The notes beneath the pieces were generated by a model. It saw nothing but the letters and a program-made list of their open reading frames with translations, did no database searches and was not told the origin of the DNA. The translations under genes and the position numbers were made by a program. From Eledone cirrhosa (taxonomy: Eukaryota), in the NCBI GenBank assembly GCA_964016885.1, contig OZ024740.1, positions 324,322,001 to 324,386,000 of the forward strand: a stretch of DNA of 64,000 nucleotides. Reading direction: 5' to 3'. Below are positions 4,767-38,900 of this stretch, piece after piece; the stretch's first letter is position 1; every line of letters starts with the position of its first letter.

Positions 4767-4894
4767 TATTTAATATAGAAATGGCTTCTACGGGACTAGA
4801 ACTGTTTCATTCGGGAGAAATCATCAGGAAGCCCTGATGATTTCTCCCGAATGAAACAGTTCTAGTCCTGTAGAAACCTTTTCTATTTTAAATA
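4767..4894. ncRNA. Fold-back palindrome carrying a hammerhead on each strand
   Basis: Minus 4783-4833: GGCUUC CUGAUGA UUUC(UCCC)GAAU GAA ACAG..CCGU A GAAGCC; plus copy from 4834 has an ACAG/CUGU stem III; ~62-bp arms with a 4-nt loop. Confidence 0.8.
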
Positions 4895-4962
4895 TTTATA
4901 CTCTACCATGTATTGAGTACCTTACTTACTGTGCTTGCCCCCGATTGAACCCAAGATAAACC

Positions 4963-5025
<63 letters not shown>

Positions 5026-5053
5026 GTGGTTACACAACAGTTAGTTCACCATA

Positions 5054-5093
5054 CCGAGAACAATTGTTTCACCTTCACGGATCTTCAGCTCGG
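5054..5093 (-). ncRNA. Hammerhead ribozyme in the Penelope 3' terminal repeat
   Basis: CCGAG CUGAAGA UCC(GUGAA)GGU GAA ACAAUUGU U CUCGG; decayed inverted copy at 7586-7623 (+). Confidence 0.8.
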
Positions 5094-5271
5094 GATGTGT
5101 ATGGTTATAGGAACAGGAAGGACAACCGTACGAACGCGCATGCGCAGAAACTCGGTCACTTCACACAGGCAATACTAGACTGCGTGCGGGAGGTGTAAGG
5201 GAGATAACTGCGAAAGTCCGAAAAGTTTTTAGGTTGAAAATAAAAAAAATTAAAAATAAAATTACAAAGAA

Positions 5272-7310
5272 TCAGTCCGGAGCCTTGTAGTTATGCAATA
5301 GATGTTTGGTGACGTGTGGACAACGTGTGAAAAATTCACTTCTCGTGTTTAGGCAATCACTATTGCGTAATCTCTTTAGGATAGTTATTCGTTCGTCAAT
5401 ACATAAGCCACACGTCGGATTTCCCCTTGCGTATGGCTTGGACTTAGTGATGGCTTTCCATTGAATGGAGTAGCCTATACTTGAGTCCTTGAGGGACCAT
5501 ACGAGGCTCGCGAGTTTCGTGGATGAACGTCTCTCCGGGTATCTGAAGGTAGACTGGTGGTTCAGGAAACGCTCCTTGAATCGGCCCTCCGCGATGCCCA
5601 CATAGGATTTGACCTCCAGTGGTTTGTTTGGTCGGTTGGAAGTGACCACAGCTTCATAGATTACAGCTGGTGTGTTGCATTGCTGTTGAAGGGGGCAAGC
5701 TTCAGGCTTACGGTAAGAGCACCCTGGTGGGGTGTTGCTCCTAGGGCTGCTGGTGATGTGGGCCTTCATGTTCTTAGCGCAGGAGTATCCTAGTTTAACT
5801 TTGTGTCGGTTAAAGATGGAGCGGTATTTATGACCTATGGGGAAGTGTCTATCTAAGAGGGCTAGAAATGTTTTTCCTACATTGGTTTTAACGTTGAATG
5901 AGAAGGGAGGAGAGAACCAGATAGTTTGTCTATTGATGCGCTTACTTTTCTTAATGGTGTTGTTGCTAGTGGGAGAGTAGGTGATAGGTTGTGAGAAGCC
6001 GCTGTTAGCCAACGCCGTGTTATAGTAGGGTGCCGCCCTGTCAAAGATAGCCTTATTAGAGGAGAAGTTTGAGATTCTAGTACTGATATTCTTAACGAAG
6101 TTTCTAAAAACAGTGGGAGGGTGGCATGAGTCCTTGTGAATGTAATTAAGTTTCTCGTTTAGCTTATGGAAGGGTCTGTGGGTGTGTGTCCGAAGGTCTA
6201 AATTAATGTCTAAGAAATCTACTCTAGAGAGGTTGGTGGTTACTGTTATCCTAAGGCCTAACTCATTGAAGGTAGAAGATAAGTCTTTTTTAAACCGGTC
6301 GAGGTGGTGACCACTTTTATGGCTCGATAAAGTCAGTCCATCGTCACGGTATATTCCTGTGTGGAAGTCCGGGAATCTCACACGTAATATGTATAAGATA
6401 AAAAGTCAACCAAGTCGCATACGTCAGCACTGTCAAACGATCCCATGGAGACGTCGAACAGGTCTGAAGATGCAAACTTCTTTGCCCAGGCTACTCCGTC
6501 GTTGAAGAGGAGGGTTTTCCGGCAGTGAGCGATGATTTCCCTGTCTAAACCATCGACAGTGGTATAAGTGGTAGCGAAATCCAACGCTTTGTTTAACAGG
6601 GTCTCTGAGATCGACGGGTAAAAATCGACAATGTCAAACTGTGTGAACTTCGCTTTTTTTGGATTAATTACGGAGTCGCTGTTTTCCCACTGGGGCAGGT
6701 TGGACTTGGTCCTAATTGTCTTAACTATGTTTCTAAGTATGGCCTTACTGACTAGTCCCATATCTGTGCGTGCCGGGTTTATTAGTCTACATGTGGCGTT
6801 AGAAGTAAAATCTACCTTGTGATCTTTCAGGGTGAGGAACGCCTCCCGCTTAGCTAGAGATTGTAGCTTCTTATCTACCTTAAGGGTGGCGGCAAGTTCT
6901 TTGGCTTCTGTATTAATGTCGTGGTAGGCCATAGGGTTAGCTTTCTTATATTTAGAAGTAATAGCGTTATGGGCCAGGTGGCGGAAAGTGGTGTTGTCGA
7001 CTTCGTAAATATTATTAGTTTTGTCGGAAAGGACGAAGGTGTTATTAGAAGACCTAAATTTCTTAATATCGTTTCTGAGTTTTGTTTGAAAGGTGTTAGT
7101 CGCTAACATTTCCTTTCGCAAACAACTAAGTCAAGAAGGTCCATCTCGAAAGGAACAAGTTCGGTTACCTTAGGAGGGTAGGCCCTCGATTTCAGGTTGA
7201 AGGTGTTGTGTGTGCCTGTAATTTTGCCGTCGAAAGCTAGGGCTCGCCATCTTAAGCGTCTGACGACATCTTCCGCTTTTTGTAGGAGGAGCTTTTGGTA
7301 AACATGGATT
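5272..7310 (-). pseudogene. Penelope-like RT + GIY-YIG ORF, frameshifted
   Basis: N-terminal KAEDVVRRLRWRA...FNLKS...ELVPFEMDL (7122-7310); RT motifs FDIVDFYPSI, SMGSFDS, GIYRDDG; linker CSYx5Cx5C; VIY...YVG...RF..RF..H; C-terminal CGLC..E and RCPH. Confidence 0.92.
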
Positions 7311-7831
7311 CAAGGAGATTACGCAATAGCGATTGCCTAAACTCAAGAAATGAATTCTTCACACGGTGTCCGCACGTCTGGAAACACCTCTTACATAACT
7401 ACAAAGCTCCAGATTGAATTACAACAACATCCTAATTTTCTTATCAAATAGAAACTTTCGGACTTTCGCAGTTATCTCCCTTACACCTCTCGCACGTAAT
7501 TTAGTATTGCATGAGTGAAGTGACCGTTTTTGCGCATGCGCGTTCCTACGGTTGTCCTTCCTGTTCAGTATAACCATGTCCATTACGAACTGAGCACCGC
7601 TAAGGTGAAACAATTGTTCTCGGTATGGTGAACTAACTGTTGTGTAACCACTTCTATAATATATATATATGGTGAACTAACTGTTGTGTAACCACTTCTA
7701 TAACATATATATATATATAATTCCAGTTCCTCAGAGAAATAACAACCCAACCAGGAGCATGACATATTGGAGTATTGACGGAGAAAAATACTTTAACAAC
7801 ATGTGTACCTGTCTCTACCACACCAATTCGA

Positions 7832-7886
7832 ACTGCCTGAAGAAGTCACAGCCAATGATGGCTGTCACAGAAATATATATAGCAGT
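7832..7886 (+). ncRNA. Type I hammerhead ribozyme in a ~220-bp element between (TA)n tracts
   Basis: ACUGC CUGAAGA [ACAGCCA-AUGA-UGGCUGU stem] GAA AUAUAUAU A GCAGU. Confidence 0.85.
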
Positions 7887-8127
7887 ACATCTTTAATAAA
7901 TGAAGCCGAATCTTAAATATTTGACTTAATTACTTTATTTTATATATATATATATATAAAGAATTCATATCTAGTAACATATATATACATACAGATGCAT
8001 ATCAATGCTAGCAAATATATAGGTTTTGTCTTAATAACAGTGTGGTTCAATGCATGGGGTTGCAGAACAATAATATAAGAGACGTAAAATAAGAAAATTA
8101 TAAAATTAACTTACTTACTAAAATATC

Positions 8128-8210
8128 ACTTCCAACTAATTAGTTTCTGGAATGGAGTAAATATATTTTCCGAAGAATAATATGGAGAAGCATTCCGTCG
8201 TCAGGAAAGT
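8128..8210 (-). ncRNA. Hammerhead ribozyme (copy 1)
   Basis: ACUUUC CUGACGA C-GGAAUG...CAUUCC-A GAA ACUAAUUAGU U GGAAGU. Confidence 0.85.
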
Positions 8211-8652
8211 CTATTCTCATGTACGTTTCCAGGCAAAGCGAGGACACTGGAAACTTATTAAAAAATAATTCAGTGGATAGGAAATAGCGAAGCGTGGACT
8301 GAATTCCAAGCCATTGAGAAAATCACTGCCTCTACGTCTGTGGCAAATTCAAAAAGAATCGAACACGTGACATCGAGGTCAATCAGTGGAAAGTGGTTTG
8401 CTAATAAGACAGCGGCCTGCCTACAACCGTAGCAGCAGTCATGGCCAATATTGCTCGACAAATAATTTGGAGATAATAATAAAGAATTCATATCTAGTAA
8501 CATATATATATGCATACAGATGCATATCAATGCTAGCAAATATATAGGTTTTGTCTTAATAGCAGTGTGGTTCAATGCATGGGGTTGCAGAACAATAATA
8601 TAAGAGACGTAAAATAAGAAAATTATAAAATTAACTTACTTACTAAAATATC

Positions 8653-8735
8653 ACTTCCAACTAATTAGTTTCTGGAATGGAGTAAATATATTTTCCGAAG
8701 AATAATATTGTGAAGCATTCCGTCGTCAGGAAAGT
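8653..8735 (-). ncRNA. Hammerhead ribozyme (copy 2)
   Basis: Same core and stems as 8128-8210. Confidence 0.85.
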
Positions 8736-8845
8736 CTCTCTCTATATATATATGTAAATATAATATATATATGTAAAGAAAAGGAAATTGACGTTGTCCC
8801 TTGTGTAAACGTTCATCCTCTCTCTCACTTCCTCCTCTCTCCCCC

Positions 8846-35909: not shown

Positions 35910-38900
35910 ATGGCTAGTTTACGAGTTGGAACCGTGAATGTGCGTGGCCTAGGGATGCCCTGGAAACAGGGCCAACTTTTAAACGACCTTAGGTCACACA
36001 GTATGGATGTGATAGCCATGACCGAGTCCAGGATCCACAACAGGCATCAACTAACCCCCATCTTCGACGACTTTGAGATCTACGCATCTCTCTGTCAGCC
36101 AGGAGGTGGAGTGGCTGTCATGTTTCGGAAGAACCTAGACGTCGAAGTACAGCAAGTACACTTGGACCCGGAGGGTAGACTGGTAGTCCTAGACGTGAAC
36201 AGTATTGGAGGTGGAGCCTTCAGACTGGTGGCCGTTTATGCCCCGACCGGGCAATCGCAATCACGGCCAGACTTCTTTAAGCGTCTAGAGTCTTTTCTGG
36301 GAACGTCTCGCTCCTAACTTTTAGTGGGGGACTGGAATGGTATCCTAGATGCACGATGGGACTATGTGAGAGCATGTCCCAGTAGAGCGGGGTGCAACAG
36401 CCTCAAAACTTTAATCGGCCAATTCCAACTGGCCGATAGGTATCGACTGGATTTCCCGACTGCACCACAGTGGACGTGGGCAAACCGCAGTGGGACATCT
36501 AGATCGTATTTAGATAGGTTCTTCATTAGAGAAAGGGACAAGGAGATGTTAAGCCGTCCACGAATGCACATGGTTGCCTATTCAGATCACAAGTTAGTCG
36601 TCTGTTTAGTCAACCGTGATAGAATACATAGACAGGGACCCGGATACTGGAAGCTGAACGTGTCGTTGCCGGCATGTAAAGCTTACAGTGAACGGATAAG
36701 TAAACTAGTCAAGCAACAGTTAACGGGAGCCATCGTCAACAATAGATGGTGGTACTCTCTCAAGAAAGCAATTAGAATAGAATCGATAGGGTATAGCAGA
36801 GAGTTAGCCTTAGAGAAAAATGGAATAGAAAGAGAACTAGTAGCCAAGGTAGAGGAGGCACTTAGAAGTGGAAACGCGGCTAGAGTGTTAGCGTCGAGAA
36901 CGGCACTCGACCAGTTCTTCGATGCGAAACACGAAGGCTGCGTTGTCAGAAGAAAAACACGTGCTCTAGGAAACGAAGGAGCGAAAGCTGTCAGCTGGAC
37001 CCGAGTGGCGGAGGCAAAAAGTGGCCAAAAGTCCACGATTCGGTCTTTGAAAGACCAAAACGGACGCGTGCTACTTGACCCCAAGCAAATGTGCGCGGCC
37101 TTTCAGCATCACTTTGCGCGACTGTTTGAGCAGAACGACGGTGAGCCGAACGGGGCAATGGACTTTAGTTCATACCTCGACGGCCTGCCGCGTCTCTCGA
37201 ACACAGACGTCGAGTTCTGCGAAAGACCGATCACGGGCACTGAGATACGGGACGCTCTGGGCCGCTGCGGGAAACGCAAGTCACCCGGTATAGATGGTCT
37301 ACCCAACGAGTTTTACATAGGCATGCCGGACTTGTTCTCTGGCGCCCTCGAAGCCGTCTACTGCAATTGGCAGCAGAACGGGAGAATTCCCAGTTCTGCA
37401 GGCAAGGGCGTAGTAACGCTGATCAGGAAAGACGAGAACAAGGGGGACGAAATTAACAACTGCAGGCCCATAATGTTGCTCAACACAAAGTTAAAGATTT
37501 GGGCCAAGGTGCTAGCGACGAGGTTGGCGCTTGTCATCGAGACCTGGTAGGGAAAGCGCAAACGTGTGTAATCCCGACCAGGTCCATACACGACAACCTC
37601 CACCTCAGGCGATATATCATAGAGAGGGTGGGTAGTAAACCCGGCTTCAGTGGGGCTCTGATCAATTTGGATCAGTCTAAGGCATTTGATAGGGTCGACC
37701 ATCGATTCTTGGAAGCGGTTCTCAAGGCGGCCGGTTTCGGTCCCGTGTTCAGAGGCTGGATCGAGGCGATGCACACCAGCATCTGCTCGAGGGTCAAGGT
37801 GAATGGCTACCTATCGGAGCCGTTCGCAATCACGCGTTCCATTCGACAGGGGTGCCCTCTCTCCTCCAGTCTGTATGTTTTGACTCTAGAGCCACTACTG
37901 CGGAAATTGGAGCTGTTGCAGGGCATCCCTCTAGAACCGGGACTGCGCAAAGTGGCGTCGGCTTATGCCGACGACGTAACGGTAATGGTGTCGAGCACCT
38001 CGGAAATCGGGGTGATCGGCAACTTACTGAAAGAATACGAAACGCTGACGGGAGCAAAACTAAACCCAGACAAGTCTGTCGGTTTGCAACTCGGTACGTG
38101 GAGAGGCAAACCGATGACGTCCGACAGCGTCGTTGGACGCTGGACGGACGGACCGGTGAAATTGCTCGGAGTCTGGTTCGGTCGAGACCTCGAGGTGGAG
38201 AAAAACTGGAACGAGGTCACGGCCAAGGTTTTTGCACTCACTCAGAAGTGGGCAGAGTGCAAACTGTCCTTGAAAGGTCGAGCGGAGGTGGCGAACACTT
38301 TCATAGCGTCCGTCATCTACTACCGCTTGACTGTCGTGCCTTGTCCCTGTGAACCCCTCGCCAAGATGGAACGCATGCTCTTCCAGTTTCTGTGGAAGAA
38401 GCAGGCTCCGCTGGTGAGGAGATCCGTCTGCTGTCAGCACCCTTCCAACGGAGGGATGGAAATGCCGTGGCTGATGATGCGCAAACATGCGCTGAGGTTG
38501 CGGCATCTCCAGGTATTCCTCACCGACACCCAACCGGTGTGGGCACCGTTTGTGAGACAGGCTTTCCCACAGCTCGTCTCGCTGACGGAACTGCAGTCCT
38601 GGGTCAAGAAAAGACCGAAAACGATGGGCGCCTGTCACATTGAATGCGCCCAGGCGCTCACAGTCCTCTGGCAAGCGGGCGCAGCAATCAGTGGATACTC
38701 CACTTCGTCATTCTTTAGAGGGATTGTACGTTACAAGGGCGACGACGTGCTCGGAGAGACTCTGGGCGTCGAAGACGATGATCTCACCAGTCTGTTTGGT
38801 AGAACTTTCCGCCCGGGACCTATGGACAACTTCCAGAGGTCCCTGGCCTGGCAGTGCTACCGAGGAGCTCTACCGGTTCGTGACAAGATCTAGAGGCACG

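What the first reader, a model, noticed from the sequence alone, without database searches (positions are those of the whole stretch)
5022..7656. The inverted 'LTR' of Penelope element 1 comes from a different subfamily template
The inverted arm (7311-7656) includes the ORF C-terminus RRLRNSDCLNSRNEFFTRCPHVWKHLLHNYKAPD*, versus KRLRNSDCLNTRSEFFTRCPHVTKHLLHNYKAPD* in the body. About ten differences are synonymous (agt/agc, ttt/ttc, cgt/cgg, cca/ccg, cat/cac, cta/ctc, ttg/tta, aag/aaa, ccg/cca, gac/gat), which indicates divergence under selection rather than post-insertion decay. The outermost 54 bp are nevertheless identical. This suggests two different PLE RNAs were reverse-transcribed from opposite ends of one break and joined at ~7310, which bears on how inverted pLTRs form.
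Basis: partly seen in the sequence, partly recalled or inferred. Interest (0 to 1): 0.75.

Follow-up and report, generated by a model that had tools for sequence, protein, structure and literature searches.

The report
Young Penelope copy joined to older
The two back-to-back halves of this Penelope-type jumping gene belong to two different subfamilies, but such mixed pairs are rare in this genome, and this one is likely a young copy that landed against a piece of an older one rather than two RNAs copied at once.

Summary
The body (5022-7307) is subfamily A and the inverted arm (7308-7655) is subfamily B: 82% identical, discordant at 32 of 33 diagnostic sites, pN/pS 0.14 between subfamilies. 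The identical last 54 bp mean nothing, because both subfamilies share them. The reading that this shows how inverted pLTRs form is not supported. Other inverted pairs have same-subfamily arms: 0 A/B among 35 classifiable loci and among 63 short A or B fold-backs genome-wide (14 expected if arms paired at random). Pair-mates share rare alleles, and 61 of 62 pairs carry the tail on one arm only. This locus has no tail on either arm. Its arm is as decayed as the older B wave (3.5% against 1.7% for the body), and no donor copy was found. Best reading (0.7): a solo A insertion was joined to a pre-existing B fragment in a (TA)n hot spot. Two-RNA co-insertion stays possible (0.15); locus L110 is a weak candidate. 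Reads did not bridge the junction. The protein motifs fit the Hydra clade. Earlier notes of this scan report similar mixed arms in other genomes.

The parts
5022..7307 (-). Body: 5'-truncated, decayed subfamily A copy of a Hydra-type Penelope-like element (about 2.29 kb of a roughly 2.56-kb unit); 3' end without tail, joined to (TA)n
   Evidence: 83 of 86 diagnostic sites A; 33 private substitutions in 1,985 sites
5272..6405 (-). Open stretch of the ORF: RT YRDD motif, thumb, GIY-YIG-like endonuclease, stop at 5272-5274; upstream part 6378-7307 broken by frameshifts and a stop
   Evidence: 40% identical to P0002; homologues P0001/P0002 have weak Pfam GIY-YIG hits below cut-off
5067..5088 (-). 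Hammerhead-like core (CUGANGA, 11-nt spacer, GAAA) in the body's pLTR
   Evidence: read from the sequence; no Rfam match; MFE fold not better than shuffles, z 0.22
7308..7314 (.). Head-to-head junction: no microhomology; either B sequence from 7308 with one deleted and one changed base, or up to 7 nt of filler
7308..7655 (+). Arm: 3'-terminal fragment of an older subfamily B copy (last 34 codons, 3' UTR/pLTR), no tail, hammerhead core hit by private changes
   Evidence: 12 private substitutions in 345 sites; private motifs unique in the genome
7602..7655 (+). Terminal 54 bp identical to 5022-5075; conserved in both subfamilies, so uninformative
7668..7701 (+). 34-bp extra copy of the element terminus with near-identical AT-rich 14-mers on both sides: tandem duplication, or a mini insertion with a target duplication
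4968..5021 (.). (TA)n tract that holds the body's 3' end

Best explanation
The locus joins a subfamily A body head to head with a subfamily B arm, and it is likely a composite of two insertions of different age. Shown: two subfamilies, a junction without homology, no tail on either end, more private changes in the arm than in the body. Inferred: an older B copy inserted first in a (TA)n-rich patch. Later an A ribonucleoprotein cut the (TA)n tract to its left and primed reverse transcription from the tail-less start site. The end of that cDNA was then joined, by end joining with loss of the DNA in between (at insertion or by a later deletion), to the B copy at or inside its 5' end. The arm is thus host DNA at the time of the A insertion, not the A element's own inverted pLTR.
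For: (1) Mixed pairs are absent elsewhere: 17 A/A, 16 B/B, 1 M/M, 1 B/M, 0 A/B among 35 classifiable non-focal loci. Genome-wide short fold-backs: A/A 8, B/B 55, A/B 0, against 14 expected, P about 1e-7; M/M 3 and no M with A or B. (2) Tail rule: 61 of 62 other pairs have the tail on exactly one arm, while the focal pair has none; 17 of 43 unpaired ends lack the tail. (3) Age: arm 12/345 against body 33/1,985, Fisher p 0.032. Arm-to-arm divergence is 2.67% in A pairs and 5.08% in B pairs. The tree is a ladder B - intermediates - A. (4) No donor: best other copy 95%; two arm-private motifs occur once in the genome; nothing in 60 kb upstream, the window or 20 kb beyond it. (5) Precursor states exist: 26 of 39 solo arms join non-(TA)n DNA at the 5' end and 13 have a (TA)n tract there. 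Loci L064 and L115 hold head-to-head copies of different type 701 and 169 bp apart. The window's left flank is another PLE family's fold-back.
Against: The two pieces abut directly with no (TA)n or host DNA between, and the junction looks like ordinary inverted junctions (23 overlap, 1 blunt, 28 with 1-30 nt filler, 2 longer, of 54). The age signal is moderate: over the same interval 2 of 49 A arms and 4 of 34 B arms have 12 or more changes, a ratio near 3, against 13 from the binomial model; both sets are partly top hits and so biased young. Three of the arm's four private coding changes are synonymous against a 30% background (p about 0.08 by my hand calculation), as a rare active source lineage would give. 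One three-part A locus (L072) also has tail-less outer ends. The ancestral allele with B alone was not seen.
Confidence: 0.7

Rival explanations
1. Two RNAs in one event: an A RNA and a B RNA were reverse-transcribed from the two ends of one break, or from two synchronous breaks, and joined at their 5' ends.
For: Direct abutment with an ordinary-looking junction. Both 3' ends face AT-rich DNA. PAc protein cleaves and extends both strands in vitro and is predicted to be a dimer (PMC11167929, parts 1-2 read). For L1, bridges of two 5'-joined inverted insertions are reported (bioRxiv 2024.08.27.596794, passages), as is one case of two ends extended on different mRNAs (bioRxiv 2024.12.14.628481, passages). 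L110 has a B arm with tail and an intermediate-type arm without, discordant at 3 of 7 sites. The arm's private coding changes are 3 synonymous to 1.
Against: 0 of 63 short fold-backs and 0 of 35 classifiable loci are A/B (95% upper bounds 4.6% and 8.2%). Neither arm has the tail. A and B sit at opposite ends of the subfamily ladder and differ about twofold in age. No source copy for a B RNA with the arm's changes was found.
Confidence: 0.15
2. The arm was copied from a genomic B copy as DNA: a template switch of a free end during the A insertion, or later gene conversion of an original A arm.
For: Explains both the direct junction and the arm's old look.
Against: No donor within 60 kb upstream or 77 kb downstream; arm-private motifs are unique in the assembly. 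Conversion of a normal pair would leave the tail on the right arm, and the arm is B-like from its first letters.
Confidence: 0.09
3. Assembly chimera: two separate loci joined at 7307/7308.
For: No listed contig or read bridges the junction (24 of 8,607 pieces shown). The arm's private letter at 7372 was not seen in runs X2-X4, although X2 and X3 hold the left flank exactly at depth 2-4.
Against: The junction has no shared sequence to mis-join on, and mis-joins usually need one (general knowledge). The contig is 443 Mb and the arm is single-copy. Logan contigs drop low-depth sequence, so absence proves nothing.
Confidence: 0.06

Closest known systems
Hydra clade of C-terminal EN+ Penelope-like elements (Craig et al. 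2021, PMC8557442; section 11 and passages read)
   Same: Unit under 3 kb, RT followed by GIY-YIG, DKT motif, RW(R/K), no cysteines between the GIY and YIG positions, CxxC and CxH near the C-terminus, (TA)n targets, hammerhead-like core, inverted 5' copy with a one-sided tail as the family norm.
   Different: The tail here runs about 66 nt rather than 30-40. At this locus the inverted piece is another subfamily and no tail is present.
Inverted-pLTR insertions such as Pen2a_Av of Adineta vaga (PMC3846280, passages) and the two RT start sites of PAc (PMC11167929)
   Same: Head-to-head layout; tail optional on one inverted pLTR; two start sites match the tailed and tail-less ends seen in 61 of 62 pairs.
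   Different: In the passages I read, the inverted copy is the element's own pLTR; mixed-subfamily arms are not described there.
L1 bridges made of two independent insertions joined at their 5' ends, and L1 insertion with target deletion (bioRxiv 2024.08.27.596794 and 2024.12.14.628481, passages)
   Same: Two 5'-truncated copies in inverted orientation joined internally; an RT end can be joined to an unrelated DNA end.
   Different: Those are somatic or experimental L1 events, many of them synchronous, with poly(A) and target heteroduplications; here the two pieces appear to differ in age and (TA)n hides any duplication.

Membership tests
Hydra-clade PLE | C-terminal GIY-YIG EN after RT, unit under 3 kb | tested here: met
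   YRDD and YEA...YVG motifs in order; unit about 2.56 kb from L072. Pfam has no hit on the body; homologue P0001 hits GIY-YIG at E 0.0011, below cut-off.
Hydra-clade PLE | DKT in place of DKG; RWK motif | tested here: met
   SDKTN present; RWR in place of RWK
Hydra-clade PLE | No CCHH cysteines between GIY and YIG; CxCX5C linker; CxxC and CxH near the end | tested here: met
   No Cys between the motifs; CGLC and CPH present; the linker reads CxYX5C in this copy through a private change, other A copies keep the Cys codon
Hydra-clade PLE | Canonical hammerhead in the pLTR | tested here: inconclusive
   Core letters and 11-nt spacer present; no Rfam match; fold z 0.22; cleavage not testable
Hydra-clade PLE | Insertion in (TA)n | tested here: met
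Hydra-clade PLE | Placement in an RT tree with reference clades | not tested
   No named reference set was fetched; the paper's supplements were not opened
Canonical single-event inverted-pLTR insertion | Both arms from one template lineage | tested here: not met
   32 of 33 diagnostic sites discordant, against at most 2 in 34 of 36 other rows
Canonical single-event inverted-pLTR insertion | Tail on one arm | tested here: not met
   Neither end has it; 61 of 62 other pairs have it on one arm
Canonical single-event inverted-pLTR insertion | Target-site duplication | tested here: inconclusive
   Both flanks are TA repeats

The most novel reading that the evidence does not exclude
The two DNA ends at a Penelope insertion site are served by independent enzyme-RNA complexes, so that one insertion can be built from RNAs of two subfamilies; this locus and L110 would be such events, and same-subfamily pairs would dominate only because one source element supplies nearly all RNA in a germ cell.
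Probability: 0.15. Interest if true: 0.55.

Novelty: new member of a known kind. Interest (0 to 1): 0.24.

Why it matters
How PLE inverted arms form is open (PMC8557442 and PMC11167929 say so). This locus is an outlier and should not be used as evidence for two templates. The control set is the more useful product. In one family, pair-mates share minor alleles 16-fold (A: 5.13 against 0.32 per kb) and 2.5-fold (B: 2.08 against 0.83) more often than non-mates, and 61 of 62 pairs carry the tail on one arm only. That points to both arms coming from one RNA, or one source element, at two fixed start sites; later conversion between arms could add to the sharing. It also warns that back-to-back arms in (TA)n hot spots can be composites.

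Tried and rejected
Terminal 54-bp identity as evidence of a shared event: rejected, it is family-wide. Mosaic body (a B element overwritten by A from the 3' end): rejected over the range with diagnostic sites, body positions 684-2235, 83 of 86 A; the 5'-most 680 nt had none. Recombination between an A right arm and a B copy: no A-type stretch at the arm's start. Nearby donor for the arm, a lead from e1-10275773: none. L064 as a second mixed pair: its two copies are 701 bp apart with host DNA between. Read support: neither lay bridged the junction, so inconclusive. Pfam, PDB and Rfam gave nothing useful on the element itself; the Atlas gave no answer. A genome-wide count exists only for fold-backs whose motifs lie within 30 nt; long pairs rest on fetched loci. 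Paper searches for mixed-subfamily PLE arms listed no such report; I saw listings only, apart from the papers cited, and opened no supplements.

Full report
Observation. The element lies on the minus strand from a (TA)n tract at 5021 to 7307, followed by a plus-strand piece to 7655. The outer 54 bp are identical.

Two subfamilies. DNA searches of the own genome (40 of 2,786 and 40 of 2,594 candidates scored; 30 loci fetched each, self included) gave two separate sets: 93-95% to the arm (B) and 96-99% to the body end (A). At 86 diagnostic sites the body is A at 83; the arm is B at 32 of 33. Majority codons of A and B differ with pS 0.174 and pN 0.024 (pN/pS 0.14), while private changes of single copies are about 30% synonymous, as expected for decay. 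A tree of 95 3' ends puts the arm inside B and the body inside A, with ten intermediate copies mostly forming a ladder between them (bootstrap not settled). The terminal 54 bp are shared by both sets, and a 38-mer from them has 3,370 exact matches.

What the family is. The translation has DKT, RWR, YRDD, a GIY-YIG-like end without internal cysteines, CGLC and CPH. These match the text definition of the Hydra clade (PMC8557442 section 11; the lead came from earlier notes). The unit is about 2.56 kb (L072). No tree against named references was made.

What ordinary pairs look like. I analysed 128 loci with element pieces: top hits to arm or body, and position-ordered exact-motif matches on contig C1 (72 of the first 88 such loci fetched). 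Dropped before counting: the two self loci, 20 short duplicates of longer fetches, L104 (overlaps L105), L101 (duplicate of L100) and the eight neighbour stretches. One search gives 64 rows: the focal pair, 62 other pairs, and a second row for the three-part locus L072. Of the 62, 61 have the tail on exactly one arm and one (L119) on both. Of 35 loci with at least 5 diagnostic sites per arm, 17 are A/A, 16 B/B, 1 M/M, 1 B/M and none A/B; 27 were too short to class. Genome-wide exact patterns for fold-backs with motifs within 30 nt gave A/A 8, B/B 55, A/B 0 and M/M 3 (one search adds one single-site variant); random pairing of A and B arms would give 14 mixed. Mates share minor alleles at 5.13 against 0.32 per kb for non-mates in A, and 2.08 against 0.83 in B. 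Ordinary arms therefore likely come from one RNA or one source element, in line with the two RT start sites and two-strand extension shown for PAc (PMC11167929).

How the focal locus differs. It is discordant at 32 of 33 sites, has no tail on either end, and its arm carries 12 private substitutions in 345 sites against 33 in 1,985 for the body (Fisher p 0.032). The evidence is moderate: 2 of 49 A arms also reach 12 changes in that interval, against 4 of 34 B arms, and the arm's coding changes are 3 synonymous to 1. No donor was found: best other copy 95%, two private motifs unique, nothing nearby. The junction has no microhomology, which is within the normal range.

Mechanism. The simplest account is two steps (inferred). 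Solo arms are common; 26 of 39 join other DNA directly at the 5' end (a few of these are tail-only mates) and 13 leave a (TA)n tract there that a later copy can target. Independent neighbours within 2 kb occur in 9 rows among 128 loci, two of them head to head and of different type, 701 and 169 bp apart. The window's own left flank is a fold-back of another PLE family. A tail-less A insertion whose 5' end was joined to an old tail-less B piece explains subfamily, tails, age and the missing donor together. It needs loss of any DNA between the two, which I could not see. Two-RNA co-insertion explains the direct abutment best and has L1 precedents, but needs A and B RNAs at one time and an exception to the tail rule. 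L110 (B with tail, intermediate type without; 3 of 7 sites discordant) is the only candidate that keeps the rule, and it is 100 bp long.

Reads. Seven runs were listed. X2 and X3 hold the left flank exactly at depth 2-4. No listed piece bridges 7307/7308, and only 24 of 8,607 pieces were shown. The junction is therefore unconfirmed.

Verdict. A real mixed-subfamily locus of a likely Hydra-clade element, most likely a composite, and not a model for how inverted pLTRs form. Earlier notes of this scan describe similar mixed arms in other genomes; they are unchecked and are not counted as support. Interest 0.24.

Noticed in passing
window 4767-4960: Fold-back of a different, very abundant PLE-like family (near-perfect hairpin 4785-4876 with a CUGAUGA...GAAA core, plus a one-sided tail), directly left of the focal (TA)n; further copies near window 22847-22936 and 49647-49714.
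   Followed up: partly
window 7668-7701: 34-bp copy of the element terminus with near-identical AT-rich 14-mers on both sides: tandem duplication, or a mini insertion at the end of an old copy.
   Followed up: partly
window 7715-8737: Fragment of another repeat at 7715-7930 (also in L078, L104) and a 98% direct duplication 7956-8212 / 8479-8737.
   Followed up: no
L110:5480-5690: Short fold-back with a B-type tailed arm and an intermediate-type tail-less arm (3 of 7 diagnostic sites discordant): best candidate here for a true two-template insertion.
   Followed up: partly
L119: Both arms carry the same internally deleted tail; the only pair with a tail on both arms, pointing to one variant template.
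   Followed up: no
L072:3125-6373: Inverted arm plus pLTR, tail and a whole unit (partial tandem); shows the tail of about 66 nt is the start of the next unit and holds a small hairpin.
   Followed up: partly
L100 and L101 (C1, 0.93 Mb apart): The same fold-back in opposite orientation at two places: likely a segmental duplication.
   Followed up: no
window 14930-20856 and 53492-54467: Long inverted repeats (351 and 323 nt arms at 97-99% around 4-5 kb; 475-nt arms 26 nt apart); LINE-type RT and endonuclease ORFs at 11027-14369 and 37457-38893.
   Followed up: no
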